Source: a virus
IMG/VR virus record: IMGVR_UViG_3300027763_000040
Coordinates: 34,874 to 98,873 of that record
Strand: one strand, 5' to 3'
DNA length: 64,000 bases
The position numbers and the translations under genes are program-made. The first letter of the stretch is position 1. Every line of letters starts with the position of its first letter. The notes under the pieces are model-generated. The model was not told where the DNA came from. It did no database searches and saw only the letters and a program-made list of their open reading frames with translations. Of the stretch, positions 20,826-44,439 are shown in pieces.

Positions 20826-20829
20826 ATAA

Positions 20830-22467: not shown

Positions 22468-22485
22468 AATAACTAAAAAAATTTA

Positions 22486-22701
22486 TTATTCGGTTACTTC
22501 TTCAGCAGTGGTTTCTACAACTTCAGGTTGTGGTTCTGGAACTGGTGTAGTAATAGTGATTTCGATCTGGTGATCCGCACCATGCTCTTCAATCAATGCT
22601 GCTACTTCCTCAACAGTATAACCAGTAGTATTTGCTGGATCCGCAGTCAAGTGATATACATGCATCAAAGGCATTGTAAGAGTTTCAGTTTTAGTATCCA
22701 T
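22486..22701 (-). CDS. Small acidic Thr/Glu-rich hypothetical protein
   Basis: 71-aa ORF with a GGAGG SD, tightly packed in the operon. Confidence 0.65.
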   Translation of the reverse strand: MDTKTETLTMPLMHVYHLTADPANTTGYTVEEVAALIEEHGADHQIEITITTPVPEPQPEVVETTAEEVTE

Positions 22702-28943: not shown

Positions 28944-31900
28944 TTACCACCAGGTTATTTTAACATATCCATTTCCACCCGAAGCACCATCTCCAAATCT
29001 ATTTTGTTCTTGAGAATATCCTCCACCACCTCCACCACCTCCACGAGTTCCAGCGCCACCATCTCCTGCCACAGATTGTGTTGTGGATGATGCAGTAGCA
29101 AGAGTTCCCGAAGGTCCAGCAGCAACAAATGAGGACCCATAAATCAATCTTGTAATATTAGTCGTACCAAATCCAGAAGATCTTACAATCCATGCGATTG
29201 CATCAGTTGAAGATCTGATTGCCCCACCAACACTACCAGCAACATAAATGTTATTAGTATAAGCAAGAGCATTAATCGCGGATGTACCAAATCCTGATGT
29301 TCTTAACGACCAAGTAATCGTATCCGTTGAAGTACTTAAGATTCCATTGTTTCCAGCAGCAACATAAGCACCGCCTAGACCACCATAGGTAAAGGCATTA
29401 ATCGCTGTTGTAGTAAATGTATTAAATCCAGAAGTTCTTATGGCCCAGTTGATATTATCAGTAGAGATCATAATATTGTATTCATTCAGAATATTTGTTG
29501 CTGATGCTACTGTGTAAAGTCCTTCTGAATCTAAAGCAGTGATTGATGTAGTATTATTTGCAGTTGTTCTAACTGTCCAGGTTATCGTATCTGTGGATGC
29601 TTGCAATAATCCGCCAGTACCGTAAGAAAGTAAAAGAGTTTGAGTAGAAGTTGCAATAGTCCCACCTCCACCACCGATTACATAAAGGTTATTGCCATAA
29701 GCACCACAAAAAATTGATGTTGCACCAAACCCAGATGTTCTTAATGCCCAAGTAATACCATCGGTCGATGTTCTTTGTTGTCCATTTGTCGTTGCAATAT
29801 AAAGACCATCATTATAAGTTAATCCATAGGAGTTAATAGCATTTATAAATCCAGTAGTTCTTAATATCCAGTTAATAGTATCGGTTGAAGTTGCAAGGTA
29901 TGTTGAGTTGCCTGAAGCAACTATAAATGTATTTGTTGGCAAAGATCCATAAACTGAAGAGAATAATTGAGAACCTGGGGATCCAGAAGTTCTTAAGGTC
30001 CAAGAAATCGTATCTGTAGAAGTTGCGATACCACCAGATCCACCAGTTGTATACAAATAAACTCCATTTCCATATGTAAATGTATAGGCATAAGATGGAA
30101 ATATAGCGGTTCTCAATTGCCAATTAATATTATCAGTAGATGCTGCTAAGAAATAATTTGTACTGAAGATTGAGTCATTTCCCCACCCTAAAGTAAAAGC
30201 ACCAGCGGAAGAAAATCCACCAGTTGAACCAAAATTTTCAGTTCCTAATGGTGCAGTTCTTGTGGTCCAAGATACAGAATCAGTTGATGCTCTTAAAAAT
30301 GCTCCATTACCATAAGAACTTAAAATTGTTTGAGTTGATGTTACCAAAGTACCAGAAGCACCTCCCATTATATAAGTATCAGTTCCATAAGCAAGTGTAT
30401 TAATATCAGAAATGCCAAATCCAGAAGTTCTTAAAATCCAAGTAATCGCATCAGTAGAAGTTCGAGTGGTTCCAGATGCACCAGCAGCAACATAAAGATT
30501 ACTATTATAAGCAAGAGTACTAATTGTGGATGCACCAAATCCTGATGTTCTTAAAGTCCAATTAATAGTATCTGTTGAAGTATTTAATATTCCATTGTTA
30601 CCACCAGCAACATAAACGATCCCATAACCAAAAGCATTAATCGCCGTCGCACCAAATCCAGAAGTTCTTAAAACCCAGTTAATGTTATCTGTAGAAACAA
30701 TTAAATTACCACTAATATTTCCTGAACTTACACCAGAAGCAAAAGAATAAGAACCACCAGAACCTAATGTAACAATATCTACAATCTGGGAATAAGTTCT
30801 CAAAGACCAAGATATTGAATCTGTAGAAGCACTCAAAAGTGAATAGATAGGATCAACAGAAGAGGCAGTTGATAGAGTGTTTGTTGCGTTAGATGCTATT
30901 AAAAATAGATTATTCCCAAAAGTAGATGCAAAAATTACTGTAGTACCGAAACCAGAACCTCTTAGAGTCCAAGTAATACCATCTGTAGAAGATGAATTAG
31001 TTCCAGAAGCGCCACCAGCGCCATAGGTATTATTACCATAAGAAAGTGTATTAATCTGAGAAGTACCAAATCCAGAAGTTCTTAAAGTCCAAGCAATTGT
31101 ATCTGTTGAAGATAATAAGGTTCCAGAAGCACCCCCAACAACATAAAGATTTGATCCATTATAAGCAAGTGTAAGAATATTGGAAGTACCAAACCCAGAG
31201 GTTCTCATAGTCCAAGCAATCGCATCCGTTGATACCGATATTGCACCACCAGCAGTTGCAGCAATGTAAGCATTGCTTCCATAAACAACAGCACTAATTG
31301 AAGATGTACCAAACCCTGTTGTTCTCAAAGTCCATTGAATAGCATTTGTAGAAGATATTAATCCTGCTATTCCACCAGATCTACCGCCAACATATTTTTC
31401 TGTTGGTGTTACACTATATGCGAGAGTAGAAACCACTCCACCACCAAGAAATCCACCAGTTCTTAAAGTCCAGTTAATTGTATCTGTTGAAGTTCTTATC
31501 TGTGGCCAAGAATCTCCAACAACATAGATACCGCCACCGAAGACCATCGTTTGCATAATTGATGCTGGGGCCGCGTTTGCAGAAGTTCTTAAAACCCATT
31601 GAATAGCATTTGTAGAAACTTGAACAGAAGCATTTGTTCCATAACCACCAGCAAGATAGAATCCATTACCAAATGTAAGAGCACCAAGACCCGTTGAAGT
31701 TCCAACAACTGTTCTCTGAGTCCATACTAATGGTTCCCCTCGACTATTAATTAAATATTCACCATTAAAGTAAGTAGAACTAACAATACCAGTTGATCCA
31801 AATCCTGATGTTCTTAAAGTCCAAGAGATTGTATCTGTTGAAGATATTAATGTTCCAAGAGATTCTCCCATATAGTTTGTTGTTGCTGCAACATAATAAC

Positions 31901-34900
31901 TACTACTTGAAGCAAGAGTAGTAATTGATTGAGTATTAGTGACCGTTGTTCTTAAGATCCAAGTAATTGCATCAGTAGAAGCAGCAAAATATGCTCCAGT
32001 ACCAAACGAAGATAAGATTGTTTGAGTTGATGTGACAATCACACCCGCAGCTGCGGCAGCAACATAGTTGGTTCCGTCAGATGCCATTTCAACAAAATCT
32101 TGTACTGTTCCAGAAGTTCTAGTAATCCAAGTGATTGTATCTGTAGAAGTTGCGATTCTTCCTCCAACAGACGCAGTAACATAAAGATTACTATTATATA
32201 CTAAACCATATATTCCACTTGTACCAAATCCAGAAGTTCTTAATACCCATTCAATACCATTCGTTGAAGATACTATTGAACCAGAGTTACTAGTGGCAGT
32301 ATAAGTACTTGATACATAAACTATATTTGTACAACCTCCACTCATAGGTGATGTTCTTGTTGTCCAAGCAATTCCATCTGTGGATGCTCTTAAAAGTGGT
32401 CCACTACCTCCAACATAATAGTCAGATCCATCATAAATAGCAGATACAATGCTAGATGTTCCAAATCCAGAAGTTCTGATTGTCCAGGCAATAGAATTGG
32501 TAGAAGAACTTAATCTACCACTTTGCCCAGCAATAATATATTTTTCAGTTTCACTAGACCCATAGGAAATAGATCCAATCCAAGAAGTTCCAAATCCTGA
32601 TGTTCTCAAAAACCAAGAAATCGTATCCGTAGAAGTAAGAAGACCTCCAGAAGTTACAGCACCACCAACAATAAAGTAGTTAGTTCCATCATAAGTTCCA
32701 GATTGTGTATCAAAAAATGGTGCTATAACAGGAGATGTTCTTGCGGTCCAGGACACACCATCTGTTGATGCTCTCAAAAATCCAGTGGATGTTACTGCAG
32801 CAACATAAAGACCATTTCCATATATTAATCCTTGTATTGTGGAAGTACCAAATCCTGAAGTTCTTAAAGTCCACATTACTGAGGGTGAATTTCCACCAAC
32901 ATAATAATTCGTACCTTTGAAACCAGATGCATTAATTGAACCAATAGTTCCAGAAGTTCTTAGAGTCCAAGTAATAGATGTAGAACTTCCTCCAATTAAA
33001 TATTCACCATTAAAATATGAATAAAAATTGATTCCACTGGATCCAAATCCAGAACTTCTTAATGACCAAGATACTCCATCTGTTGATGTAGAGATAAGAC
33101 CACCAGCAATTCCATTAGATCCTCCAATCAAAAACGAAGTTCCACCATAAATTGCATGAAAAATAGTAGGACTTGCCCCAAATCCAGAAGTTCTTAAAGT
33201 CCAAGTAACTAATGTTGATGCAGCACCACCAATCAGAAACTCATTATTAGAATAAGTAACTGCACTAATCGTAGTTGTTCCAAATCCAGTGGTTCGTGCG
33301 ATCCAGGTGATATTATCTGTAGAAGCAATCAAAGCAGTCTGAGAAATATAGTTTGTTCCCGCCGCAACATAGTAACTATTACTTGTAGATAATAATGTGA
33401 TTGTTTGAATATTGGAGTTAGTTCTTAAAGTCCAAGATACTCCATCAGTCGAAGCAGTTAGTAATCCACCATTTCCAAGAGAACTTAAAGTACTTTGTGT
33501 CGAAACTGCTAAAGTTCCTATATTACCACTAGCAATATAAGTGTTGTTATTATAAAAAATACTTAACATATTACTATTTAAGTTTGAAGTTCTCAAAATC
33601 CAAGTAATACCATCAGTTGAAGTTGTATTGGTTGGTCCTGCTCCGCCAGCAGTAAAAATACCACCATTATAAGCGATGGTATAGATTATATTAGAACCAA
33701 ATCCAGCAGTTCTTAAAGTCCAAGAAATGGTATCGGTGGATGTTGAAAGATATCCAGATGTTCCACCACCAACATAAAGATTAGATCCATTATAAGCAAA
33801 TGTATAGATGTTTTGCGTCGTTCCAGATGTTCTCAATATCCAAACAGTCGCATTAGTGGATACGAGAATCTGTGCTGGAGAAGAACTTGGTGAAACAACA
33901 TAAGGATTTGAAGCGCCAGTTGCATAGGTAAATGCAGCAGAATAACTCGTTACCGCTGTTGGTAAAGTTGCACTTTGAGTCCAAATAATAGAATCCGTAG
34001 AGTTAATAAAGATTGGTGGATTTGTGTTTGAACTCAAAATAGAAAATCTACCATCCACATAAAGCATACTTGAATATTGTGCCGCAGTAAATCCAGCAGT
34101 TCTTACCGTCCAGGTAATCGCATCAGTTGAAGCAGTGATCCACTGACCATTGCCACAAGCAACATATCTTCCAACACCATAAGCAACAGATCCAATCGCT
34201 GTTGTACCAAATCCAGAGGTTCTTAAAGTCCAAGTGATAGCATCTGTCGAAGACGCAAGAACTCCAGATTGAGCACAATAAAGATAAAGTGATGATCCAT
34301 CATAAGTAATCGGATATCCACCAGTGGTAAATCCACCAGGACCAATATTGGCAGATACTTGACCAGAAGTTCTTAAGACCCAGGTAATAGTTGGTGTAAA
34401 TCCTCCAGCAACATGGAAACTATTACCATATGTAAGCGCAGCAATCGCGGTTGTACCGAATCCAGAAGTTCTTAAATACCAACTATTGATTCCAGTCGAA
34501 AGTGCTCCTCCACCTCCACCACCAGATCCAATGTTTCCAGTATAAGATCCAGGAATACCATCAATGCCATTACCACCAGAAGCACTTCCTGCAGTATTAT
34601 ATGCATTTCTATAATAATATGTTAGAGAGTTTCCACCCGCTCTTGTATTAAATGCACCACCACCGCCACCAGTAACTTGATATGTATTTGATTGAATTGC
34701 ATTGTTTACACTTGCCCATGATGTTAATCCAGCACCACCAGCAAGACCAGCAGTAGTATAAAGTGGGTTTAAAGTCACTGCGGCTGCGGCACCTGCAGTT
34801 CCTGCAGTTACATCGGATGAAGATGCTCCAGTTCCTCCAGAAGATGTTAAGGTATAAGTAGCGGTTCCTGTTGGAGATTTTCCAGTCCAAGTTAGGGTTG

Positions 34901-37900
34901 TATTTCCACCAGATGTGGGTGTAATTAATAATCCCGATCCCCCAGCAAGAAAAACAGTTCCATAAGTAAGACCATAAAGTGAAGTTAATGCACTATTTGT
35001 TCTTAAAGTCCAAGTAATCGCATCAGTTGATGTTACAGTAGTACCACCATACTGATTGACAAAAATTCCAGAATTATAAATTACTCGATAAGATCCAATA
35101 GCATTTGGAGTAGTTCTAATTGTCCATCTAATTGTATCTGTGGAACTTGCAAGTTTATTAAATCCCGCTGCAATATGAATTCCATTACCATATGCCAAAT
35201 TGTTAAGTTGCTCTGCACCAATTCCAGATGTTCTTGCAGTCCAACGAATAGCATCAGTTGATACAAAAATATTACCATTAAGATCCCCAACAATATATGG
35301 AGTTGATTCCGAAGATACATAATTTGATGAAAGTATTGAACTTGATCCACCACAAGTTCTAATTGTCCAAGTAATAGCATCGGGACTTGTGATTATTGCC
35401 CCATTAACACCAGTCATAACATAAGTTCCACTTGGTGCAGTACCATACATTAAAGAATATTGGGTAGAGTTTGGAATTCCACTAACTCTTATAGTCCAAA
35501 CAATCGCATCAGTGGATGTCCCATAATAACTTGGAAATATTCCAACATCAGTTCCAAAAACATATAATGATCCCGAATAAATCAAAAGTGGGCCACCCCC
35601 TAAACTTCGTCCAATTCGAGTTGTTCCAAATCCAGATGTTCTCAAAATCCAAGTATTTGTATCAACAGATGTTGCAATTGTTCCAGAATCTCCAACTGCA
35701 ACATAAAGAGAATTTCCATATACAAGATGATTAATTGTAGTTGCTCCAAAAGCACTGTTTGTTCTGGTCCAAATAATCCCATCAGTACTACTAATCATTG
35801 TTTTAATATTACCACCAGTTCCTCCAGTACCTGGAGTTACTGTGATTGTGGGCGCATCTCCAAATTCTAGACGACGAATCAACCAAGAGTTATAAGCACC
35901 ACCACCTCCTCCACCACCAGATCCAACAGTTCCAGTTGCTTTTCCTGCTGCTCCGCCTCCACCAGCACCGATTGCTTCAATATAAATCTGAGATGCTGTT
36001 GGAGGAATATAAAAAGTTTGTGCTCCTGATGCAGTAAACTCCTGATATCCTCGATATATTGGAGAACCGATTGTACTAGATGTAGAGTTAATCGTTTGCC
36101 ACTGTTTTGCAGTTATATTGGAAACCGCAAGAGTTCCAGATACACCACCAGCAACAATCGAAGAACCATAAACAGAAGTTGTGATTGAAGTAGATCCAAA
36201 TCCACTAACTCTCGAAATCCAAGAGATTCCATCTGTAGATATTGCTAGTGTTCCCGCAGAACCAAAGGCAACAAATTGGGTTCCACCATAAAATAAACTA
36301 TTAATCGCCGTCGTACCAAATCCAGTTGTTCTTAAAGTCCAAGAGATTGTATCTGTAGAAGTTCTTAAGAGACCAGCATTGCCAGCAATAGTATAAGTAT
36401 TATTACCATAACCAAAAGCATTAATCGCCGTCGCACCAAATCCAGAAGTTCTTAAAACCCAGTTAATGTTATCTGTAGAAACATTTAAAAATCCAACTTC
36501 ACCCATATAGTTGGTTCCATGAGCAAAAGCATAAGAACCACCAGAACCTAGTGCAGTGATTGCTAGTGTATTAACTGCAGTTGTTCTAGAAGTCCAAGAA
36601 ACTCCATCAGTTGATGCCCGTAAAAGTGCTCCAGTTCCAAATGAAGATAAGATTGTTTGATTGGAAGTTTGTATGTCTCCAGTATTAGTACCAAAGACAT
36701 AGATATCATTTCCAACTCCAATCGTCGATATTGCAGTTGTACCAAATCCAGAAGTTCTTAAGACCCAAGTAATCGTATCAGTCGATGTTACAGTACTTCC
36801 ATTTTGACCAGCACCTACATAGACTCCATTATTATAAGTAAGTTGTAATAGTGATGTAGATCCGAGTCCAGAAGTTCTTAAGACCCAATGAATCGCATTC
36901 GTTGAAACGGTTATATATGTTGCACCACATCCAAGATATAGATTATTTGCATAGATTAATCCAACTAATGAGTTACCAGCACCAATCGCAGTAGTTCGAA
37001 TCACCCAAGCAATCGAATCTGTGGAAGATGATGTGAATGATGGTACAGATGCAACATATTTTTCAGTTGCATTTTGCCCATATGCCAAAGCATTAATGGT
37101 ACTTGTACCAAATCCTGTTGTTCTTAAGGTCCAAGAAATAGTATCTGTCGAAGATATAATAGTACCAGATGATCCTCCAGTAACATAAAGACTTCCACTA
37201 TATACGAATGTTGGTCCACTATTACCAACACTGTTTCCCAGAGTGGCAGTTGTTCCAACGGTTCTCGCTGTCCAGTTAATACTATCAGTCGAAACAAGAA
37301 CATTACCTTGATTCAAATAGTTATTTGATGTTGCAAGATAATATCCACCACCAGATGTTAAGGCAGTAATACCTTGAGTGTTGAGTCCTGCAGTTCTTAA
37401 TGCCCAAGAAATAGTATCGGTTGAAGCCCTTAAAATTGCACCATTACCAATCGATCCCAAAATACTTGTCGTTGATGTTGAAATTGTAGGTACTGAAAAT
37501 CCAGGTCCTGCCACCACAAAAGTATTATTACCATAAGTGGAGGTATATATTGTAGATGTACCAAATCCAGAAGTTCGTGCAATCCAAGTAATCGCATCAG
37601 TTGATGTTGCAGTATTTCCACCAGCACCACTCGCATTAAAAATTCCATTACCATAGGTCAATGCATACACATTGGCACCCATTGTACCTACAGTTCTTAA
37701 AACCCAACTAATACAATCCGTAGATGATGCAATATTAAACCCACCGATAACATATAAAGAATTTCCATAAGTGGAAGTAAAAATTGCATTAGCAGGAAAT
37801 CCAGTGGTTCTTAAAACCCAGTTAATTCCATCAGTGGAAGATGAAAATGATCTAGCAACATTAGTAGTTACGCCATATGTATTGATTGGGGTATTCCCAT

Positions 37901-38930
37901 AAACAATTGAATATATGCTAACAAATCCCAATCCAGTTGATCTTGCAAACCAACTAATTGAATCGGTAGAAGTTGAGAAATAACCTCCACTACCACCCAC
38001 AAGATAAACTCCATTTCCATAATTGATGAGAGGTCCAACATCAATAGCATTTGAATAATCTAAAGTAGTTCCAGAAGTTCTCTTAGTCCAAAAAATACCA
38101 TCTGTCGAAACTGTTATGGATCCAGCAAGACCAGTAGCAACATATAAATTATTACCATATCCAACATTATGAAGAGCAGTTGTACCATATCCCGTAGTTC
38201 TCGAAACCCAATTGACTGCATCGGTTGAAGTTAATAATACTGCTCCCGTTCCTCCTGCAAGATAAAGATTGTTTCCATATCCTAAAGAGTATGGAGTAAA
38301 TACTGTACCAAAAGTTCTTTGAGTCCAGGTTGTATAATCAGCATACCCACCAGCAAGATAGATTCCATTATTATATGCGATACTATAAATCGCTGTTGTA
38401 CCAAATCCTGAAGTTCTTAAAGTCCAAGAAACGGTTTCTGCTCTACCAGCAATCAAATATTCATTGTTAAAATATATTGATTTTGCAATATTAGTTGTAC
38501 CAAATCCTGATGTTCTTAAAGACCAGGAAACAGAATCAGTTGAAGAAGTTAAGGTTCCAGAAACTCCAGAAGCAACATAATTTGTTCCTGAAGATGCTAA
38601 GTTATTGATCGCGGAAGTACCGAATCCTGATGTTCTTAAGGACCAGGAAACAGTATCGGTTGAAGTTGTTAATGTTCCAGAATCTCCACCATTAACATAA
38701 ACAGTTCCATAAGTCGCAGCATTAATATTAGTAGTACCAAATCCAGAAGTTCTAAGTGTCCAGTAAAATGCTCCAGGATAAACACTTAAAAACTTACCAC
38801 CATTTCCAGATACAGATGGATATATTGGAGTACCAGTTAATACAGCATCTGCATAAGTCTTATTTGCCGCATCTGTTGTATTAACTACTGTACTAATACC
38901 AGTAATATTATTGCTGCCTAATATTGCCAT
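28944..38930 (-). CDS. Giant 3328-aa virion fibre/adhesin: Gly-rich scaffold carrying ten nested 7-repeat beta-propellers
   Basis: 70 repeats of about 40 aa (W..RTSGFG...Y..G..G....STD) with an Asp-box-like STD...W turn. N-terminal DAANKTYAD neck. Late promoter ATAAATA at 38952-38958. Confidence 0.8.
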   Translation of the reverse strand: MAILGSNNITGISTVVNTTDAANKTYADAVLTGTPIYPSVSGNGGKFLSVYPGAFYWTLRTSGFGTTNINAATYGTVYVNGGDSGTLTTSTDTVSWSLRTSGFGTSAINNLASSGTNYVASGVSGTLTSSTDSVSWSLRTSGFGTTNIAKSIYFNNEYLIAGRAETVSWTLRTSGFGTTAIYSIAYNNGIYLAGGYADYTTWTQRTFGTVFTPYSLGYGNNLYLAGGTGAVLLTSTDAVNWVSRTTGYGTTALHNVGYGNNLYVATGLAGSITVSTDGIFWTKRTSGTTLDYSNAIDVGPLINYGNGVYLVGGSGGYFSTSTDSISWFARSTGLGFVSIYSIVYGNTPINTYGVTTNVARSFSSSTDGINWVLRTTGFPANAIFTSTYGNSLYVIGGFNIASSTDCISWVLRTVGTMGANVYALTYGNGIFNASGAGGNTATSTDAITWIARTSGFGTSTIYTSTYGNNTFVVAGPGFSVPTISTSTTSILGSIGNGAILRASTDTISWALRTAGLNTQGITALTSGGGYYLATSNNYLNQGNVLVSTDSINWTARTVGTTATLGNSVGNSGPTFVYSGSLYVTGGSSGTIISSTDTISWTLRTTGFGTSTINALAYGQNATEKYVASVPSFTSSSTDSIAWVIRTTAIGAGNSLVGLIYANNLYLGCGATYITVSTNAIHWVLRTSGLGSTSLLQLTYNNGVYVGAGQNGSTVTSTDTITWVLRTSGFGTTAISTIGVGNDIYVFGTNTGDIQTSNQTILSSFGTGALLRASTDGVSWTSRTTAVNTLAITALGSGGSYAFAHGTNYMGEVGFLNVSTDNINWVLRTSGFGATAINAFGYGNNTYTIAGNAGLLRTSTDTISWTLRTTGFGTTAINSLFYGGTQFVAFGSAGTLAISTDGISWISRVSGFGSTSITTSVYGSSIVAGGVSGTLAVSNITAKQWQTINSTSSTIGSPIYRGYQEFTASGAQTFYIPPTASQIYIEAIGAGGGGAAGKATGTVGSGGGGGGGAYNSWLIRRLEFGDAPTITVTPGTGGTGGNIKTMISSTDGIIWTRTNSAFGATTINHLVYGNSLYVAVGDSGTIATSVDTNTWILRTSGFGTTRIGRSLGGGPLLIYSGSLYVFGTDVGIFPSYYGTSTDAIVWTIRVSGIPNSTQYSLMYGTAPSGTYVMTGVNGAIITSPDAITWTIRTCGGSSSILSSNYVSSESTPYIVGDLNGNIFVSTDAIRWTARTSGIGAEQLNNLAYGNGIHIAAGFNKLASSTDTIRWTIRTTPNAIGSYRVIYNSGIFVNQYGGTTVTSTDAITWTLRTNSALTSLYGLTYGTVFLAGGSGLLITPTSGGNTTLTWTGKSPTGTATYTLTSSGGTGASSSDVTAGTAGAAAAVTLNPLYTTAGLAGGAGLTSWASVNNAIQSNTYQVTGGGGGAFNTRAGGNSLTYYYRNAYNTAGSASGGNGIDGIPGSYTGNIGSGGGGGGALSTGINSWYLRTSGFGTTAIAALTYGNSFHVAGGFTPTITWVLRTSGQVSANIGPGGFTTGGYPITYDGSSLYLYCAQSGVLASSTDAITWTLRTSGFGTTAIGSVAYGVGRYVACGNGQWITASTDAITWTVRTAGFTAAQYSSMLYVDGRFSILSSNTNPPIFINSTDSIIWTQSATLPTAVTSYSAAFTYATGASNPYVVSPSSSPAQILVSTNATVWILRTSGTTQNIYTFAYNGSNLYVGGGTSGYLSTSTDTISWTLRTAGFGSNIIYTIAYNGGIFTAGGAGPTNTTSTDGITWILRTSNLNSNMLSIFYNNNTYIASGNIGTLAVSTQSTLSSLGNGGLLTASTDGVSWTLRTNSNIQTITLLSTSNSYYVAAGTNYISQTALIASTDNITWIARTTGFGTTTISAVTYSNNEFLIGGAASTLVTWTLRTSGFGASPTIFHAIYGGTSFLIGGSNGIAGGLISTSTDGVSWSLRSSGFGSSGINFYSYFNGEYLIGGSSTSITWTLRTSGTIGSINASGFKGTNYYVGGNSPSVMWTLRTSGFGTSTIQGLIYGNGLYVAAVTSTGFLRASTDGVSWTARTSPVIAPFFDTQSGTYDGTNYFIVGGAVTSGGLLTSTDTISWFLRTSGFGTSWIGSISYGSSETEKYIIAGQSGRLSSSTNSIAWTIRTSGFGTSSIVSAIYDGSDYYVGGSGPLLRASTDGIAWTTRTSPMSGGCTNIVYVSSTYTATSNSGSIVSSTNGIEWVLRTSGFGTSGIYGLVYNSNLYVTASVGGRIATSTDTITWITRTSGTVQDFVEMASDGTNYVAAAAAGVIVTSTQTILSSFGTGAYFAASTDAITWILRTTVTNTQSITTLASSSSYYVAATTNYMGESLGTLISSTDTISWTLRTSGFGSTGIVSSTYFNGEYLINSRGEPLVWTQRTVVGTSTGLGALTFGNGFYLAGGYGTNASVQVSTNAIQWVLRTSANAAPASIMQTMVFGGGIYVVGDSWPQIRTSTDTINWTLRTGGFLGGGVVSTLAYSVTPTEKYVGGRSGGIAGLISSTNAIQWTLRTTGFGTSSISAVVYGSNAYIAATAGGAISVSTDAIAWTMRTSGFGTSNILTLAYNGSNLYVVGGASGTLLSSTDTIAWTLRTSGFGTSQINTLSYGNNTYGAGGASGTNSSSTDGITWTLRGSGFGTTVIFASTFGNNLFLIASNATNTLSTASSVDPIYSLLSASTDSISWSLRTYSQIVDIVTLGSGGSYSFASGVSSGNISGNLIVSTDNINWVLRTSGFGATAINAFGYGIVYVAGGNNGILNTSTDTINWTLRTSGFGASTISTLAYNSNLYVAAGASGTTRTSTDAITWILRTSGFGISDINTLAYGTDTYIMGGASGTLVTSTQTILSSYGNGAFLRASTDSVSWTTRTAPLGTENFGSTGGFSSAGAFTLGWGNDSIFSTNYFLAASTDNINWQLRTAIFPSYAYTFTYGNGVYLYTTGGSGGIATSTDTISWTLRTSGSPGSQLFSSVYGSLPTNTFIVASGNSTYLATSTDTINWILRTTGFINAINSYGLTYNDGLYIATTNGQQRTSTDGITWALRTSGFGATSIFCGAYGNNLYVIGGGGGTIATSTQTLLLSYGTGGLLQASTDTITWTVRTTANNTTSITALDSEGLYTVASATNILNEYNIMISTDNINWAIRTSGFNTFTTTAINAFTYGGLGGAYVAAGNNGILSTSTDTITWSLRTSGFGTSAINALAYTNNIYVAGSVGGAIRSSTDAIAWIVRSSGFGTTNITRLIYGSSFVAAGPSGTLATASSTTQSVAGDGGAGTRGGGGGGGGYSQEQNRFGDGASGGNGYVKITWW

Positions 38931-38957: not shown

Positions 38958-41684
38958 TTACCACCAGGTGATCCTCACAAATCCATCGCCACCATTTCCA
39001 CCATTCGCAAAAGTAGATCCAATGGCAGCACCTCCACCTCCACCACCTCCACGAGTTCCATTACCACCTGCGCCAGCACTTGATATACCAGCACCTCCTC
39101 CACCTCCACCAAAACCATAAGGAAGTGAAGTGATTGCAATACCAACTGCACCATTCGATCCTGTATTACTTCCACCAGCAGAGAAAATAGTATTGCCATA
39201 GAAAGTAATCGAACCACCACCACCTCCTGCGGAAGATGGTGTTCCTGCTCCACTACCACCGCCCGTTGATTGGAATGAGTTTGCCTGTGCCGTAGCAGAC
39301 ACTCCAACACCATTGATCGCAGTAACACCACCAGGGCCGCCAGCAGTTGTATAATAATAATTCGTGATATTTGTTTGAGCAATTCCAGCAACACCACCAG
39401 CACCACCACCATTTGCAACTAGTGTATAAGTTCCTCCAGGGCCAGTCCATGATATTGTTGTTCCTGCTCCTGCAGATCCAGAACTAGTTTCAGTTGTTGC
39501 TCCAGTTCCACCGACTCCAATATTTACACTTACATTTGAAGTTACTATAGATTTGGGAATATACCAAGAAGTATAAGAACCTCCAGAACCGCCAGTACCA
39601 GATAACTGAGATTGTGCAGTAATTAAAGATCCAGATACTCCAGCAACATAGTAATTATTATTCACAGATATTGATGATCTTAAAGATTGTGTCGTATTAG
39701 AAGTATTTACTCTCCAAACTATAGCATCTGTTGAGACATAAACTCCTCCATTATCACCTGCCAGAAGATAACTCAAAGATGCAGAAGAATATGAAAGAGT
39801 ATAGATTGAATCTCCAGAAAACCCTACAGTTCTTAGAGTCCAAGTGATTGCATCAGTTGAAGAGGTTAAGAATTTATCAGATCCTGCAGATACATAAACA
39901 GACCCATAAGTAAGTGTATTAATCGCGGAAGTACCGAATCCCGATGTTCTTAAGATCCAGGTAATAGTATCAGTTGAAGTATTTAAGATTCCATTATTAC
40001 CGCCAGCAACATAAACAGTTCCATAACTAAAGGCATTAATCGCAGTTGAACCAAATCCAGAAGTTCTTGCAATCCAGTTAATATTATCTGTAGAAACATT
40101 TAGGAATCCAATATCACCTCTATAGTTGGTTCCATGAGCAAAGGTATAAGAACCACCAGAACTTAGTAAAGTTACAGTTAATGTATTGAGTGCTGTAGTT
40201 CTTAAGACCCAAGTTATGCCATTAGTTGATGCTTGGAGACGGGCCCCAGTTCCAAATGAAGATAAGATTGTTTGATTGGAAGTTTGTATGACTCCAGAAC
40301 TTCCCCCAAAAACATATATGTCTTGACCAAAGATACTCGTATAAATGTCATTACCTGAAGGAGAAGTTCTCAATACCCATGCAATACCATCCGTAGAAGT
40401 TAGATTAGTTCCAGATGCACCAGCAGCAACATATAAGTTATTATTATGGGAAATGGTATAAAGATTACTTACAGTTCCAGAAGTCCTAAATGTCCATTGT
40501 ATGGCATTAGTAGAAGTTTCAATAAATCCCGAGTTGCCAACTATAGCATAAACAGAACCTACCGCAATATTGTTAAGCGTAGTGGTAGTTGAAGAAGTTC
40601 TGAATGTCCAGTATATGGTATTCGTCGAAGTTTGTATATATCCACTAATACCCGCAAGAACATAGTAGTTACTACTCAGAGTACTATAGATTCCAGAATA
40701 CACATAATTTGGATTCATTGGTACGGGACTAGTTCTTGTAAACCAACCAATACCATCAGTTGAAGTTGTTATTATTGCAGAAGCACTTAGATAAGTTGGA
40801 GTTGGTAAAGATCCATATAATACAGTATGTATTCCATAAATACCAGCAACCATAGGAGCATTGGTTCTTGTAGTCCATACGATTCCATTTGTAGAAGTTC
40901 CTGTTCCTCCGCTATTCGAATTATTAATGAACACATATAAATTATTCCCCAAAATAAGACCAGAACCAGCACCATTATTACCATTTCCAACTTGATTTAA
41001 AGGAGAAGAAATAGTTCTAAGTACCCAAGAAATAGTATCCGTGGAAGTTGCTAAATTTGAAGAATTTCCACCAGCAAAATAAGTATTATTAGCATAAAGA
41101 GATGCTAAAAAACCATTACCAGTTCCAGAAGTTCTTAAGACCCAGGTAATCGTTTCTACTCTTCCACCAATCAAATGTTCATTATTAAAGTAAGTTGCAC
41201 TATTAATATTGGTTGTTCCAAATCCTGAGGATCTTACAATCCAAGTGATTGTATCAGTTGAAGATCTCAATGCTCCTCCTGCTCCAGAAATAACATAAGT
41301 TGTTCCACCTGATGTAATATTTGAAATCGTCGTCGATCCAAAACCAGAAGTTCTTAATGACCAAGTAAGACCATTTTTTGCAAAAGTAGATCCAGTTGTT
41401 CCAGTACTTCCACCACCTCCAGCACCAACTGCCTCAACATATAAAAGATTTGCCTGAGAAGGCACTGTAAATGTTTGTGGAGATCCTGTTGTAGAAAACT
41501 CTTGATAGTTTGAAACATAATCCCATGAAACACTTGTACCATCAGTCGTAGTTAAAAACTCTCCATCATTTCCAGTTTGTGATGGCAATGTTGAAAGATT
41601 ATCGACATAAGACTTATAAACACCATCAGTTCCCTGAGTTGCTGTTGTAATGCCAGTAATAAAATTAGATCCTAGTATTGCCAT
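38958..41684 (-). CDS. 908-aa paralogous fibre/adhesin (two propellers, one nested in the other, on a Gly-rich scaffold)
   Basis: Same N-terminus (MAILGSN.ITGI), 14 repeats, and C-terminus GG.G.V.ITWW. Confidence 0.8.
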   Translation of the reverse strand: MAILGSNFITGITTATQGTDGVYKSYVDNLSTLPSQTGNDGEFLTTTDGTSVSWDYVSNYQEFSTTGSPQTFTVPSQANLLYVEAVGAGGGGSTGTTGSTFAKNGLTWSLRTSGFGSTTISNITSGGTTYVISGAGGALRSSTDTITWIVRSSGFGTTNINSATYFNNEHLIGGRVETITWVLRTSGTGNGFLASLYANNTYFAGGNSSNLATSTDTISWVLRTISSPLNQVGNGNNGAGSGLILGNNLYVFINNSNSGGTGTSTNGIVWTTRTNAPMVAGIYGIHTVLYGSLPTPTYLSASAIITTSTDGIGWFTRTSPVPMNPNYVYSGIYSTLSSNYYVLAGISGYIQTSTNTIYWTFRTSSTTTTLNNIAVGSVYAIVGNSGFIETSTNAIQWTFRTSGTVSNLYTISHNNNLYVAAGASGTNLTSTDGIAWVLRTSPSGNDIYTSIFGQDIYVFGGSSGVIQTSNQTILSSFGTGARLQASTNGITWVLRTTALNTLTVTLLSSGGSYTFAHGTNYRGDIGFLNVSTDNINWIARTSGFGSTAINAFSYGTVYVAGGNNGILNTSTDTITWILRTSGFGTSAINTLTYGSVYVSAGSDKFLTSSTDAITWTLRTVGFSGDSIYTLSYSSASLSYLLAGDNGGVYVSTDAIVWRVNTSNTTQSLRSSISVNNNYYVAGVSGSLITAQSQLSGTGGSGGSYTSWYIPKSIVTSNVSVNIGVGGTGATTETSSGSAGAGTTISWTGPGGTYTLVANGGGAGGVAGIAQTNITNYYYTTAGGPGGVTAINGVGVSATAQANSFQSTGGGSGAGTPSSAGGGGGSITFYGNTIFSAGGSNTGSNGAVGIAITSLPYGFGGGGGGAGISSAGAGGNGTRGGGGGGGAAIGSTFANGGNGGDGFVRITWW

Positions 41685-41694
41685 TTATTTTCTC

Positions 41695-44439
41695 CTATTG
41701 CCAACTAATACGAACATAACCATCACCACCATTTCCACCAAATCCTGGAACAGTGCTTGCACCATCATATGCTCCACCACCACCACCGCCTCCACAAACT
41801 CCATTTCCACCACGGCCCGCCTTTGTTGCAGTCGTCGCAATCATATCTGAACCACTGCTCACAAGTAGAAAAATATTATTTCCAAAACACCCACCACTGA
41901 CATTACCACCATTAACCCATCCACCAGTTCTTAAGTGCCAAGTAAAAGAATCGATAGATGCATGAACATAATTAGAATTGCCAGCAGCAATATAAGTCCC
42001 ACCACCATAAATTGAAGCATATGGATCACTACTTAAAGTTCTCACAATCCAAGTAATGGTATCAGTAGAAGTAGAAACACTATTACCACTTCTATTAGAT
42101 GCTATAAATCTTCCATTGCCATATGCCAATGATGAAACATCGCCAATACCGCCTATACCCAAAGTTCTTGCAATCCAAACAATACCATTTGTAGATACAT
42201 TAATCACTCTAGAAGCTGCTCCAAGAATATATTGATCATTATCATAAATTATAGAATAAATTTGTCCCGTTGTTCCAGCAGTTCTTAGTTGCCAAACAAT
42301 GGCATCCGTAGAAGCAATTAGAGCACCAGAGGCGCCAACACCATAAAAAAATCCACCTTGATATGACAAAGAAGGTCCAGAAAAAGTACTTCCAATTTGA
42401 TTTGCAGTTCCAGATGATCTAAATGTCCAGTTGATTGAATCAGTAGAACTTCTTAATCCAGAGTTTCCATCAATCACATAAACACCATTACCATAAACTA
42501 CCCCCAAAATTACACTAGCACCATAAGAAGAAGTTCTCAAAACCCAAACAATACTATCGGTAGAGAATCCCAAGCGGCCACCATCACCACCATAAATGTA
42601 ATTTGATCCATCATAATAAGTCGTATAAAGAACAATACCACCGGTATTGGCAGTTCTTAATCTCCAAAAACTTCCGCCAAGAGCATTCGAACTTCCACCA
42701 TTTCCACCATAACCATAAGAAAGTCCAGTAATGTTTGTTGCACTTGTACCATTCATATTTCTCTGATCTAATGTGGAAGATACAGTATTTCCATAATAGT
42801 TAATTGTACCTCCCAAAGATCCATAAGATCCATAAAAATTTGAACTATTTGTGTTAGAGTTAGAAACTGCTCCACCACCACCACCAGTAGTTTGAAAAGA
42901 TGAAGTTGCAGTTGTTGCATTTGATGGTACTTGAAGTGCCTCAAAAATACCACCATTACCACCAGCAGTTCCAGCAGATGCTTGAAGATAATTTGATGAT
43001 GCCGTTATTGTACCTCCTGCCCCACCAGGAAGTGATTGAGTTGAAGAGTTATATACATTAGTTCCAGCACTTCCACCATTTGCAGTTATAGAAAAGTTTC
43101 CTCCAGGTCCTGCCCAAGATACTACACTCGAATCTCCAGATGCTCCATATACACCACCTTTTCCAACTTTAACGGTTAATGTAGTGCCACTAATATATGC
43201 TTTTGAAATATTCCAAGATGCCGCTGCTCCTCCACCTCCACCACTTCCAGCAAATCCAGTAGGAGGTAAAGCAGCACCAATATATCCAGAATCACCACCG
43301 ACAACAAAAGTATTATTGCCATATACCACTCCTTTCCAACCACTACCAAAAGCACCTGGTGAAGTTCTGAATGACCAAGTAACAGTATCAGTAGAAAAGA
43401 ATATAAATCCAGCACCACCAACAGCATAATAAGTATTATTCGCAAAAGTTGTTGCATATAAAGATTGTAAATAACTTACACTAGTTCTTGCAGTCCAAGT
43501 AACTGCATCTGTAGAAACAATTATATCGGCAGATGTACCAGTAGCAAAATAAAGACCATTTCCATAAGATACACTAATATAAAAATTATTATTAACTCCA
43601 GTTCTAATTACCCAAGTAATACTATCTGTAGAAGTTTGAAATCTTCCAGAACCACCACTAGTAACATATTGATCTCCAGCATAAAGAATTCTATATATTG
43701 CATTTCCGGTAGGATATCCAGAAGTTCTTAAGGACCAGGTAATGCCATTTGTAGAAGCAAAAATACGAGCATCATTATCTAAACCAAGAACATAAATGCC
43801 ATTATTAAATTCTAAAGCATTAAGTCTAGCAGTACTGGCACCTGTTGTTTGCATTGTCCAAGTGATACTATCAGTAGAGGTAATTAATTTTCCAGCATTA
43901 CCACATACAACATAAAGATTTCCACTATACACGATAGAACCAATTGCAGTTGCACCAAATCCACTTGTTCTCGTAATCCAAGTAATTGCATCAGTAGAAG
44001 CAAGAACTGCTCCACCATCAGTTCCTGCATAAAATACATTGTTCGCATATATCATTCCTGGACCCTGATAATACCCTGAAATACTATTAGAATGACTAGA
44101 AGTTCTTAAAAACCATTGCCCAGCACCAGTGTTCACATAAGAAGATGCATCTCTAGTTCCTGATGCTCCACTCCCTCCAGCACCCGTTGCTTCTATGAAC
44201 AGTTGTTTTGCTTGAGACGGTACATTAAAGGTATACGTTCCAGCAGCAATATATTCTTGATATGATCCTACTGGTTGCCAAGATGAAGTATTGCCATTAG
44301 TGGTTAAAAAGTTATTATCTTGATTTGTTATTGGTGGACCAGATGCAGAAATATCCACATATTGCTTATTTACGGCATCAGACGCATTAGATACCGAATC
44401 AATACCAGTAACTTGAGTAGAACCTACACCGACTGGCAT
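41695..44439 (-). CDS. 914-aa paralogous fibre/adhesin (two un-nested propellers on a Gly-rich scaffold)
   Basis: DAVNKQYVD neck, YQEY...TF.VP...IEA.GAGG, 7+7 repeats, C-terminus GGDGYVRISWQ. Confidence 0.8.
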   Translation of the reverse strand: MPVGVGSTQVTGIDSVSNASDAVNKQYVDISASGPPITNQDNNFLTTNGNTSSWQPVGSYQEYIAAGTYTFNVPSQAKQLFIEATGAGGSGASGTRDASSYVNTGAGQWFLRTSSHSNSISGYYQGPGMIYANNVFYAGTDGGAVLASTDAITWITRTSGFGATAIGSIVYSGNLYVVCGNAGKLITSTDSITWTMQTTGASTARLNALEFNNGIYVLGLDNDARIFASTNGITWSLRTSGYPTGNAIYRILYAGDQYVTSGGSGRFQTSTDSITWVIRTGVNNNFYISVSYGNGLYFATGTSADIIVSTDAVTWTARTSVSYLQSLYATTFANNTYYAVGGAGFIFFSTDTVTWSFRTSPGAFGSGWKGVVYGNNTFVVGGDSGYIGAALPPTGFAGSGGGGGAAASWNISKAYISGTTLTVKVGKGGVYGASGDSSVVSWAGPGGNFSITANGGSAGTNVYNSSTQSLPGGAGGTITASSNYLQASAGTAGGNGGIFEALQVPSNATTATSSFQTTGGGGGAVSNSNTNSSNFYGSYGSLGGTINYYGNTVSSTLDQRNMNGTSATNITGLSYGYGGNGGSSNALGGSFWRLRTANTGGIVLYTTYYDGSNYIYGGDGGRLGFSTDSIVWVLRTSSYGASVILGVVYGNGVYVIDGNSGLRSSTDSINWTFRSSGTANQIGSTFSGPSLSYQGGFFYGVGASGALIASTDAIVWQLRTAGTTGQIYSIIYDNDQYILGAASRVINVSTNGIVWIARTLGIGGIGDVSSLAYGNGRFIASNRSGNSVSTSTDTITWIVRTLSSDPYASIYGGGTYIAAGNSNYVHASIDSFTWHLRTGGWVNGGNVSGGCFGNNIFLLVSSGSDMIATTATKAGRGGNGVCGGGGGGGAYDGASTVPGFGGNGGDGYVRISWQ

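What the first reader, a model, noticed from the sequence alone, without database searches (positions are those of the whole stretch)
28944..38930. Recursively nested ('Russian-doll') beta-propeller tree: ten 7-repeat units, up to four levels deep
Seen: the 70 W..RT repeats are not a simple array. Seven repeats break off after the Y-L-I-G-G strand (openings near 38440, 38340, 34400, 33220, 32985, 32890, 31740). They resume later at a linker of the type TSTQTILSSFGTGA-xLRASTD (closings near 37470, 36660, 33495, 32025, 30860, 30333, 29643). Openings and closings balance like parentheses. Parsed this way, every unit has exactly 7 repeats: P1[P2[P3]], then P4, then P5[P6, P7[P8[P9, P10]]]. The repeat following each insertion is a specialised variant (mostly IT.L.S...Y....TNY), suggesting a docking blade. 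Inference: whole propellers were inserted again and again into the same loop of other propellers, giving a branched, dendrimer-like multivalent receptor-binding protein. With the DAANKTYAD neck it may trimerise and display 30 propellers. I know of no described protein with this recursive architecture.
Basis: partly seen in the sequence, partly recalled or inferred. Interest (0 to 1): 0.93.

Follow-up and report, generated by a model that had tools for sequence, protein, structure and literature searches.

The report
Propellers nested inside propellers, phage fibre
A 3328-residue tail-fibre-like protein of an uncultured T4-like cyanophage is built from ten seven-bladed beta-propellers spliced into loops of one another and into a fibre-tip domain, a rare natural case of a protein that grows by recursion and swaps whole modules.

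Summary
ORF 28944-38930 (-) has 70 blades, 7 truncated 'openers' and 7 'closers' with an extra strand. They balance like brackets, and every unit has exactly 7 blades (chance about 7e-9).

Three new regularities support the nested reading:
- Exactly one blade per unit, always the seventh, lacks the Asp-box.
- Relatives carry the same gene with 2 to 10 propellers in other tree shapes.
- One cassette, together with its 'docking blade', sits in different sockets in different phages.

P4 and the P5 tree are themselves inserted into a split Gly_rich_2 domain. In the paralogue next door, this domain matches the receptor-binding tip of the cyanophage Pam3 fibre in a model.

Structural support is partial. 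Both AlphaFold2 runs were of low confidence. An ESMFold2 test of the two halves of P1 passed: 0.84, best control 0.00. That mark was reached by 58 of 80 solved complexes and 2 of 110 mismatched pairs.

Recursion itself is known (cyanobacterial RNA polymerase Si3). I found no description of propeller-in-propeller recursion. The scan noted the same family earlier on two other cyanophage contigs. Receptor binding is inferred, not shown. This exact 10-unit tree was seen once, on one metagenome contig.

The parts
38763..38930 (-). N-terminal anchor, aa 1-56 (MAILGSN.ITG..., TDAANKTYAD). It is shared by the three paralogues and by homologues.
38427..38762 (-). P1a, aa 57-168: velcro D strand, blades 1 and 2, and strands A-B of blade 3 (opener)
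38328..38426 (-). P2a, aa 169-201: velcro D strand of P2 and strands A-B of its blade 1 (opener)
37467..38327 (-). P3, aa 202-488: contiguous seven-blade unit, the innermost of the first tree
36651..37466 (-). P2b, aa 489-760: closing linker, C/D strands of P2 blade 1, docking blade 12, and blades 13-17
36111..36650 (-). P1b, aa 761-940: closing linker, C/D strands of P1 blade 3, docking blade 18, and blades 19-21
35802..36110 (-). Gly_rich_2 domain, N part, aa 941-1043 (Pfam PF21722 profile positions 1-74)
   Evidence: 34.8 bits, cut-off 24.3
34917..35801 (-). P4, aa 1044-1338: seven-blade unit inserted in the glycine-rich domain. Homologue P0004 lacks it and is contiguous at this point.
34482..34916 (-). 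Gly-rich domain, middle part, aa 1339-1483
   Evidence: collinear with P0004; no Pfam hit of its own
34383..34481 (-). P5a, aa 1484-1516: opener (blade 28)
33495..34382 (-). P6, aa 1517-1812: contiguous seven-blade cassette, 98% identical in protein to the cassette in the same socket of L001
33204..33494 (-). P5b, aa 1813-1909: closing linker, docking blade 35, and opener blade 36
32970..33203 (-). P7a, aa 1910-1987: blade 37 and opener blade 38
32874..32969 (-). P8a, aa 1988-2019: opener blade 39
32022..32873 (-). P9, aa 2020-2303: contiguous cassette. Its orthologue sits in the P1 socket of L001/L005 and in the P6 socket of L005/L011.
31725..32021 (-). P8b, aa 2304-2402: closing linker, docking blade 47, and opener blade 48
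30870..31724 (-). P10, aa 2403-2687: contiguous cassette, 99% identical in protein to the one in L001
30330..30869 (-). P8c, aa 2688-2867: variant closing linker, docking blade 56, and blades 57-59
29640..30329 (-). P7b, aa 2868-3097: closing linker, divergent docking blade 60, and blades 61-64
29094..29639 (-). P5c, aa 3098-3279: closing linker, docking blade 65, and blades 66-68
28947..29093 (-). Gly_rich_2 domain, C part, aa 3280-3328 (profile positions 163-225, ends GYVKITWW)
   Evidence: E 0.013, weak; the same C-terminus occurs in all family members
38958..41684 (-). Paralogue W908 (908 aa): split Gly_rich_2 domain hosting a propeller that hosts a second propeller (blades 1, 2(3-9)10-14). 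Its opener, closer and docking motifs are the same as in the giant gene.
41695..44439 (-). Paralogue W914 (914 aa): Gly_rich_2 domain with two un-nested propellers in two sockets

Best explanation
What it is. The gene encodes the third and most expanded of three paralogous fibre-tip proteins of an uncultured T4-like cyanomyovirus.

Layout of the chain:
- a short conserved N-terminal anchor;
- a propeller tree P1[P2[P3]];
- a Gly_rich_2 domain, related to the TNF-like plus glycine-rich receptor-binding tip of phage fibres, split by two insertions: P4 and the tree P5[P6,P7[P8[P9,P10]]].

Blades. Each sequence repeat reads strand D (W.LRT), then A, B and C, ending in an Asp-box-like S-T-D-x-I-x-W hairpin.

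The splice. A child propeller is spliced into the B-C loop of a parent blade.
- The parent supplies A-B, then 6-7 linker residues.
- The child starts with a D strand and ends with A-B-C of its seventh blade. It therefore closes by a 1+3 velcro, and its last C-D hairpin is cut open. That hairpin is the only Asp-box missing in each unit.
- A linker of about 10 residues (ILSSFGTGA) returns the chain to the parent's C and D strands.
- The next parent blade is remodelled into the 'docking' blade, with changed D-A and B-C loops on the same face.

Evolution. The unit that evolves is cassette + linker + parent C/D strands + docking blade. Homologous recombination between blade repeats moves it between sockets and between phages. 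This gives gene versions with 2 to 10 propellers.

Function (inferred, about 55-60%). The protein is a branched, multivalent host-surface (probably glycan) binding head, and its modules are exchanged to change or broaden adsorption.

Shown: the sequence grammar, the family series, the cassette mobility and the split host domain. Modelled only: ring closure of P1 and the fold of one inner unit in the paralogue. Inferred: the face on which children sit, oligomeric state and ligand.
For: Sequence grammar:
- All ten units have exactly 7 blades; chance 7e-9 by exact enumeration.
- There are 59 strict and 61 loose Asp-box motifs against 60-61 expected if only the seventh blade of each unit lacks one. 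The ten blades without the motif are exactly the last blades under the nested parse.

Family series:
- Un-nested relatives of about 1185 aa are P1|P4|P5 (L007, L008, L009, L012).
- The other forms are 1526 aa (L011), 1850 aa (P0002 type, 13 clusters), 2409 aa (L005), 2719 aa (L001), and P0004/5/10 with five propellers in a linear chain.
- In an automatic parse of 278 relatives, 67 of 91 closed brackets enclose exactly 7 blades.

Collinearity across the splice:
- Un-nested P1 sequences align straight across it..YLIAG[RAETVS-insert-FGT]GALLRASTDGVSW against ..YIAAG-DSGVLNTSTDAITW.

Cassette mobility:
- P9 is 77% identical to the cassette in the P1 socket of L001 and 71% to the one in the P6 socket of L005/L011.
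- At DNA level, aa 2020-2379 (cassette + closer + docking blade) match L001 aa 172-531 at 80.6%. The flanks are collinear at 87-90%. In L001 two ordinary blades occupy that place.

Split host domain:
- The giant's aa 966-1043 hit Gly_rich_2 profile positions 1-74 (34.8 bits; cut-off 24.3). The last 58 aa hit positions 163-225 (E 0.013).
- P0004 is contiguous where P4 sits.

Complex model of the two P1 halves (ESMFold2, aa 50-168 with aa 764-945):
- Score 0.84, best control 0.00. That mark was reached by 58 of 80 solved complexes and 2 of 110 mismatched pairs.
- Partner pLDDT is at least 84, and the runs agree in at least 92% of contacts.
- The lowest-error contacts are EYLIA (strand B of blade 3) with LRAST (the strand C after the linker), and blade 1 plus the N-terminal D strand with blade 7.

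Partial model of the paralogue (VIA-align on the W908 model):
- About 45 of 50 top rows are seven-bladed propellers (Z 14.7-16.7, rmsd 3.5-4.3, 232-260 aligned) on residues 182/184-470/479. This is the predicted inner unit, not the consecutive parse.
- Pam3 fibre 7ypx_A: Z 16.2, rmsd 2.8, 178 aligned, 26% identity, spanning model residues 55-908.
- Bxb1 tail tip 9d93_Qa: Z 15.0, rmsd 3.5, 197 aligned, 33% identity, spanning residues 57-908.

Strand order and context:
- A profile of 14 units hits designed WD40-like propellers Tako8/Ika8 in register D-A-B-C (E 3.3e-5).
- The gene lies among collagen-like tail-fibre genes and virion structural genes of a T4-like cyanophage.
- In Pam3 gp24 the glycine-rich tip is described as recognising the host receptor (PMC9608196).
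Against: - No confident full model exists. AlphaFold2 of aa 50-945 without an alignment gave pLDDT 31.7. AlphaFold2 of paralogue W908 with 17 rows gave pLDDT 36.2, and the outer propeller was unresolved. The propeller matches therefore rest on a low-confidence model.
- The pieces for the complex test were cut according to the hypothesis. Any 3 + 4 blades of similar propellers might be laid into a ring. The controls were unrelated proteins, not mismatched blades.
- The giant has no Pfam propeller hit at threshold. The Asp-box assignment rests on the motif, on Pfam labels of relatives and on language-model neighbours.
- The window is a metagenome-assembled viral contig (98.9 kb, 47% complete). 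The exact protein is in no other collection searched, and reads could not be checked.
- There is no evidence on ligand, on presence in the virion or on oligomeric state.
Confidence: 0.8

Rival explanations
1. Ten ordinary tandem propellers. Consecutive repeats (1-7, 8-14, and so on) form beads on a string. The short and long repeats are just irregular blades and linkers.
For: The blade counts per block (21, 7, 42) are multiples of 7 under this reading too. No confident full-length model excludes it.
Against: - It does not explain why openers and closers balance with every enclosed stretch a multiple of 7 (7e-9).
- It does not explain why the blades without an Asp-box fall on the seventh blade only under the nested parse.
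- It does not explain why relatives differ by whole bracketed modules.
- It does not explain why un-nested P1 aligns across the splice.
- In the W908 model the propeller spans residues 182-479, not 108-396 or 397-690.
- Strand B before the insert pairs with strand C after it in the complex model.
Confidence: 0.06
2. Assembly artefact. The ten-unit tree is a chimera produced when a short-read metagenome assembler joined repeats of related strains or paralogues. The real gene is smaller or arranged differently.
For: - The window is an IMG/VR contig, linear and 47% complete.
- This exact protein and that of L001 are absent from a collection of 15 billion proteins.
- The gene is highly repetitive, with one 78-nt exact repeat.
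- No read-level check was possible.
Against: - The frame is open for 3328 codons, and all ten units count exactly 7. A mis-join would usually break this.
- Only two exact repeats of 45 nt or more exist across the three genes.
- Nested trees of 4 to 8 units recur in independent metagenomes: L001, L005, L011/L013/L014, the P0002 type in 13 clusters, and P0004/5/10.
- This rival affects only the exact topology here, not the existence of the architecture.
Confidence: 0.08
3. The architecture is nested, but the function is not receptor binding. The propellers could be glycan-degrading (sialidase-like) enzymes, or passive virion decoration or spacer material.
For: - Asp-box propellers include many glycosidases (general knowledge).
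- Language-model neighbours include a cluster named 'sialidase family protein'.
- A glycosyltransferase-rich island lies directly downstream.
- No ligand evidence was obtained.
Against: - There is no Pfam hit to any glycosidase family.
- The host domain matches fibre tips that are described as receptor-binding.
- Rapid module exchange between phages is typical of adsorption proteins (general knowledge).
- No catalytic motif was looked for in detail, so this rival stays open.
Confidence: 0.2

Closest known systems
Si3 insertion of cyanobacterial RNA polymerase beta' (RpoC2): recursively nested sandwich-barrel hybrid motifs (PMC13114784, with the work it cites)
   Same: Copies of one fold are inserted into copies of the same fold, A1-B1-C-B2-A2. 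The nesting is several levels deep and has branching nodes. The number of copies differs between lineages.
   Different: - The Si3 modules are small (under about 100 aa) and sit inside an essential enzyme.
- Here each module is a seven-bladed propeller of about 290 aa inserted in a defined B-C loop.
- Each insert comes with a dedicated linker and a docking blade.
- The host is a phage fibre protein, and the modules are exchanged between sockets and between phages.
Cyanophage Pam3 tail fibre gp24 (PDB 7YPX), S16 gp38 adhesin tip, and the Bxb1 tail-tip protein (PDB 9D93): TNF-like plus glycine-rich receptor-binding domain
   Same: - The host domain of the paralogue W908 aligns with 7ypx_A (Z 16.2, rmsd 2.8, 178 residues, 26% identity) and with 9d93_Qa (Z 15.0, rmsd 3.5, 197 residues, 33% identity).
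- The giant has the same Gly_rich_2 signature.
- Both lie in the fibre gene region of a cyanomyovirus.
   Different: In Pam3 and S16 the tips of the glycine-rich loops are short and variable. Here at least three of these positions carry whole propellers or propeller trees, so the domain is split over as much as 2300 residues of chain. Whether the sockets lie at the distal loop tips is inferred, not shown.
Asp-box (BNR) seven-bladed propellers: Ycf48/HCF136 (PSII_BNR, PF14870), DUF6242_C (PF25852), and the sialidase superfamily
   Same: - There are seven blades per unit.
- An S-x-D-x-x-x-W hairpin lies between the third and fourth strands of most blades (59 of 70).
- Relatives carry PF25852 or PF14870 labels.
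- A phage homologue is annotated as a PSII assembly factor.
- The nearest language-model clusters are of these families.
   Different: No Pfam model reaches threshold on the giant itself. The conserved SGFGTT loop and the opener, closer and docking blades have no described counterpart. None of these families is described as hosting another propeller.
Domains inserted into propeller loops, e.g. the integrin alpha-I domain (PMC12422189)
   Same: A whole domain with adjacent termini is inserted in a loop of a propeller without disrupting the propeller.
   Different: There the insert has a different fold, occurs once, and is not recursive.

Membership tests
Asp-box (BNR) beta-propeller | Repeated S/T-x-D-x-G-x-T-W/F hairpin motif, one per blade | tested here: met
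   There are 59 strict S[ST][DN]xxxW motifs and 61 loose ones in 70 blades. They are missing only in the seventh blade of each unit. The Gly at position 5 is often replaced.
Asp-box (BNR) beta-propeller | Match to a curated family model (BNR, PSII_BNR, Sortilin-Vps10, DUF6242_C) | tested here: inconclusive
   The giant's only Pfam match is Beta-prop_BT_1020 at E 0.75. W914 hits DUF6242 at 25.2 bits, below the cut-off of 29. Relatives carry precomputed PF25852 or PF14870 labels. The nearest language-model clusters are DUF6242_C and PSII_BNR.
Asp-box (BNR) beta-propeller | Closed seven-bladed propeller fold | tested here: inconclusive
   The inner unit of paralogue W908 aligns with seven-bladed propellers (Z up to 16.7, rmsd 4.0, 252 aligned), but the model pLDDT there is about 37. 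The two halves of P1 form a ring-like interface in ESMFold2: score 0.84, best control 0.00, a mark reached by 58 of 80 solved complexes and 2 of 110 mismatched pairs. A profile of units hits designed propellers Tako8/Ika8 at E 3.3e-5.
Gly_rich_2 (PF21722) / fibre-tip glycine-rich domain | Pfam model above its gathering score | tested here: met
   Giant aa 966-1043: 34.8 bits (cut-off 24.3), profile positions 1-74. C-terminal 58 aa: positions 163-225, E 0.013. W908: 27.7 bits.
Gly_rich_2 (PF21722) / fibre-tip glycine-rich domain | Fold like the Pam3 gp24 or S16 gp38 tip | tested here: met
   Met for paralogue W908 only: 7ypx_A at Z 16.2, rmsd 2.8, 178 aligned, 26% identity. The model pLDDT in that part is 60-79. 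The giant itself was not modelled.
Recursive (nested) domain insertion, A1-B1-C-B2-A2 | A domain is interrupted by a complete domain that is itself interrupted | tested here: met
   Met at sequence level by the bracket grammar and by comparison with un-nested relatives. One parent junction was modelled.
Phage receptor-binding protein (tail fibre or adhesin) | Present in the virion and needed for adsorption | not testable with these tools
   Only context is available: tail-fibre and virion structural neighbours and the fibre-tip host domain.

The most novel reading that the evidence does not exclude
The family is a natural plug-and-socket system.
- Propeller cassettes travel together with their linker and docking blade. 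Recombination re-plugs them into any of several equivalent sockets: B-C loops of propeller blades and loop tips of the glycine-rich fibre tip.
- Cyanophages could thus assemble branched heads with different combinations of binding modules and retarget adsorption quickly.
- The tree would fold from the inside out and, if the fibre is trimeric like Pam3 gp24, would present up to 30 heads.
Probability: 0.35. Interest if true: 0.9.

Novelty: new variant of a known kind. Interest (0 to 1): 0.8.

Why it matters
- It would be a clear natural case of a protein that grows by recursion with large domains of about 290 aa. Ten propellers form a tree four propeller levels deep, five counting the host domain.
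- It shows that the B-C loop of an Asp-box blade, together with a cut C-D hairpin of the guest, is a reusable splice.
- For phage biology, it points to a modular way of building and reshuffling adsorption heads in marine cyanophages, whose receptors are largely unknown.
- For protein design, it offers a ready-made junction (opener, linker, docking blade) for branched multivalent scaffolds.
- For annotation, it warns that repeat counting by consecutive blades mis-assigns domains in this family.

Tried and rejected
- AlphaFold2 of giant aa 50-945 without an alignment gave pLDDT 31.7 and is uninformative. A VIA-align search with that model gave only weak leucine-rich-repeat-like rows (best Z 6.1). 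This is noise from a failed model, not evidence for a solenoid.
- AlphaFold2 of paralogue W908 with a clean 17-row alignment gave mean pLDDT 36.2. Only the glycine-rich parts reached 60-79, and the outer propeller was not resolved.
- I tried to build an alignment for the giant's N-terminal tree.
- Matching blades of un-nested P1 one by one to the giant's blades was uninformative, because the blades are too alike. Spliced hosts align full-length with contiguous propellers, but so does any unit of the family.
- phmmer of one unit and of the glycine-rich pieces against PDB sequences gave only spurious antibody or capsid hits.
- Pfam and PHROGs on the whole giant gave nothing at threshold.
- tblastn against 50,697 phage records found only two distant single-propeller relatives.
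- An exact look-up of the giant, of the L001 protein and of W908 found none of them in the collection.
- Four full-text searches for nested or inserted propellers returned nothing relevant.
Full report
**1. The observation**

ORF 28944-38930 on the minus strand is open for 3328 codons. It has no Pfam or PHROG family at threshold. Cutting the protein at every W..R[T] gives 68 repeats plus two degenerate ones, so 70.
- Seven repeats are only 32-34 residues long. They stop after the Y-L-I-G-G strand: repeats 3, 4, 28, 36, 38, 39 and 48.
- Seven repeats are 54-60 residues long. They carry an extra linker and strand of the type TSTQTILSSFGTGA-LLRASTD: repeats 11, 17, 34, 46, 55, 59 and 64.
- A repeat HMM sees the same thing. 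Openers match positions 1-31. Closers match positions 1-39 and then, separately, 26-45.

Read as brackets, they give P1[P2[P3]], P4, P5[P6,P7[P8[P9,P10]]] with exactly seven blades in each of the ten units. By exact enumeration, given balanced brackets, the chance that all units count seven is 7e-9.

**2. What the repeats are**

The motif S-T-D-x-I-x-W at the end of most repeats is an Asp-box-like hairpin.
- A tblastn hit falls on a phage gene annotated as a Ycf48-type PSII assembly factor.
- Relatives carry DUF6242_C or PSII_BNR labels.
- The nearest language-model clusters are of these families.
- A profile of 14 units hits the designed WD40-like propellers Tako8/Ika8 (E 3.3e-5) in a register that fixes the strand order of each sequence repeat as D (W.LRT), A, B, C.

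From this the anatomy of the splice follows.
- An opener is D-A-B of a parent blade followed, after six or seven residues, by the D strand of the child.
- The child ends with A-B-C of its seventh blade.
- A linker of about ten residues returns the chain to strand C, the Asp-box and strand D of the parent blade.
- The child therefore closes by a 1+3 velcro and is cut open at one C-D hairpin. The parent is opened in a B-C loop.

The ten blades that lack one are exactly the seventh blades under the nested parse. Under a consecutive parse they would fall at irregular positions.

**3. The tree is larger than described**

- Residues 966-1043 match Pfam Gly_rich_2 profile positions 1-74 above threshold. 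The last 58 residues match positions 163-225 weakly.
- Homologue P0004 is contiguous exactly where P4 sits in the window protein.
- So P4 and the whole P5 tree are insertions in a split glycine-rich domain, and the deepest propellers are five levels below it.
- The two upstream genes (38958-41684, 908 aa; 41695-44439, 914 aa) are paralogues with the same N-terminal anchor and the same glycine-rich C-terminus.
- W908 carries one nested pair with the same opener, closer and docking motifs. W914 carries two un-nested propellers.

**4. Relatives**

Searches of protein and viral-contig collections show the same third gene of the same three-gene array in many lengths. The topologies come from my parser and from manual reading.

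| Source | Length | Topology |
|---|---|---|
| L016 | 906 aa | two un-nested propellers, no P1 |
| L007, L008, L009, L012 | about 1185 aa | P1, P4, P5 un-nested |
| L011, L013, L014 | 1526 aa | only the tree P5[P6,P7[P8]] |
| P0002 type (13 clusters) | 1850 aa | P1[P2], P4, P5 with one insert |
| L005 | 2409 aa | P1[P2], P4, P5[P6,P7[P8]] |
| L001 | 2719 aa | as L005, with P10 added in P8 |
| P0004/5/10 | about 2180 aa | five propellers nested in a linear chain |

- In an automatic parse of 278 relatives, 67 of 91 closed brackets enclose exactly seven blades. Several of the rest are known parser errors.
- Un-nested P1 sequences align straight across the splice in the window protein, with the insert falling between strands B and C of blade 3.

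**5. Cassettes move**

- P6 and P10 are 98-99% identical in protein to the units in the same sockets of L001. The host propellers are only 61-76% identical.
- P9 has its closest relatives in other sockets: the P1 socket of L001 and L005 (77% and 74%) and the P6 socket of L005 and L011 (about 71%).
- At DNA level, aa 2020-2379 match L001 aa 172-531 at 80.6%. This stretch is cassette, closing linker, parent C/D strands, docking blade and the first residues of the next blade (aa 2370-2379). The flanks are collinear at 87-90%. L001 has two ordinary blades in that place.
- The mobile unit therefore includes the docking blade, and the event looks like recombination between blade repeats rather than a bare insertion.
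- Within the window, the longest exact repeats are 78 nt (30622-30699 and 36406-36483, both just after docking blades) and 45 nt (the closing linkers of the giant and of W908).

**6. Structure prediction**

- Both AlphaFold2 jobs gave low confidence: giant aa 50-945 without an alignment, pLDDT 31.7; W908 with 17 rows, pLDDT 36.2.
- The W908 model, although weak, contains a ring. About 45 of the 50 best VIA-align rows are seven-bladed propellers (Z 14.7-16.7, rmsd 3.5-4.3, 232-260 aligned) on residues 182/184-470/479. These are the bounds of the predicted inner unit, not those of a consecutive parse.
- The better-modelled glycine-rich parts (pLDDT 60-79) align across the 600-residue gap with the cyanophage Pam3 fibre (7ypx_A: Z 16.2, rmsd 2.8, 178 aligned, 26% identity). 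They also align with a Bxb1 tail-tip protein (9d93_Qa: Z 15.0, rmsd 3.5, 197 aligned, 33% identity).

The one complex job (ESMFold2) took the two non-contiguous halves of P1, each with a seven-row alignment.
- The score was 0.84 in the median run, and the best control was 0.00. That mark was reached by 58 of 80 solved complexes and 2 of 110 mismatched pairs.
- Partner pLDDT was at least 84, and the runs agreed in at least 92% of contacts.
- The lowest-error contacts are the ones the hypothesis requires. EYLIA (strand B of blade 3) pairs with LRAST (the strand C after the linker). Blade 1 and the N-terminal D strand pair with blade 7.
- Caveats: I cut the pieces according to the hypothesis. Similar blades may complement each other generically. 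The pass may also reflect likeness to solved propellers.

**7. Context and function**

- The window is part of an IMG/VR viral contig of 98.9 kb, 47% complete.
- Neighbours are collagen-like tail-fibre proteins and a virion structural protein about 46% identical to that of Synechococcus phage S-RSM4. A glycosyltransferase-rich island lies downstream.
- In Pam3 gp24 the glycine-rich domain forms the distal tip and is described as recognising the host receptor (PMC9608196).

From the host domain, the gene neighbourhood and the fast exchange of modules, I infer a branched, multivalent adsorption head. I give this about 55-60%. An enzymatic or purely decorative role is not excluded. Trimerisation and the figure of 30 heads remain untested.

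**8. What is known**

- Recursive insertion of one fold into itself is described, up to six levels, for the Si3 region of cyanobacterial RNA polymerase beta' (PMC13114784). The principle is therefore not new.
- Four full-text searches found no description of a propeller inserted in a propeller, let alone a tree.
- The scan itself noted the same family earlier on two other cyanophage contigs. Those notes agree with this reading but are not independent evidence.

**9. Verdict**

Models support it only in part. I rate it a new variant of a known kind (nested domain insertion), in a setting where it probably matters for host recognition.

The main open risks are the single metagenomic observation of this exact ten-unit topology (reads could not be checked) and the lack of a confident three-dimensional model.

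Noticed in passing
window 38958-41684 and 41695-44439 (-): Two paralogues of the giant gene share its N-terminal anchor and its glycine-rich C-terminus. In both, the glycine-rich domain starts near the N-terminus and is split by propellers at a socket that the giant does not use (right after the first GAGGGG motif). W908 holds a nested pair. W914 holds two single propellers in two sockets.
   Followed up: partly
window 30622-30699 and 36406-36483; 36631-36675 and 40246-40290: There are exact DNA repeats of 78 nt (just after two docking blades of the giant) and 45 nt (closing linkers of the giant and of W908). The surrounding repeats are only 60-80% identical. This suggests recent gene conversion at the junctions.
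   Followed up: partly
window 17900-28898 (-): Directly downstream of the giant gene lie several genes with glycosyltransferase and methyltransferase PHROG hits (phrog_1574, phrog_2170, phrog_2675). The fibre proteins are very rich in Ser and Thr (29% of the giant). A link, such as glycosylation of the fibre, is only a guess.
   Followed up: no
window 51262-53835 and 54757-59532 (-): Two large collagen-like tail-fibre proteins (857 and 1591 aa) have many overlapping tail-fibre PHROG hits. A short stretch is 100% identical in DNA to the collagen gene of Actinomycetia phage DSL-LC01.
   Followed up: no
L017 (OQ999401.1, Actinomycetia phage DSL-LC01) 4049-4921 and 8258 onward: A freshwater actinophage has a single 290-aa propeller of this blade type, annotated 'photosynthesis system II assembly factor'. 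It sits among collagen-like genes, near a gene of about 2850 aa annotated 'ALK tyrosine kinase receptor', probably because of a glycine-rich domain. The same building blocks therefore occur outside cyanophages.
   Followed up: no
P0055-P0057 (relatives of W908, about 1085-1092 aa): These relatives have the same nested pair as W908, plus an extra non-propeller segment of about 180 aa inside the outer propeller region. It may be a different kind of guest in the same scaffold.
   Followed up: no
(library of 1.84 billion representatives): The blade type is very widespread: 11,264 representative clusters at E <= 0.001 and 527 at E <= 1e-30 for W908. These include bacterial surface proteins of 4,000-5,000 aa. 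Whether these are nested was not examined beyond a motif-tuned parser.
   Followed up: partly
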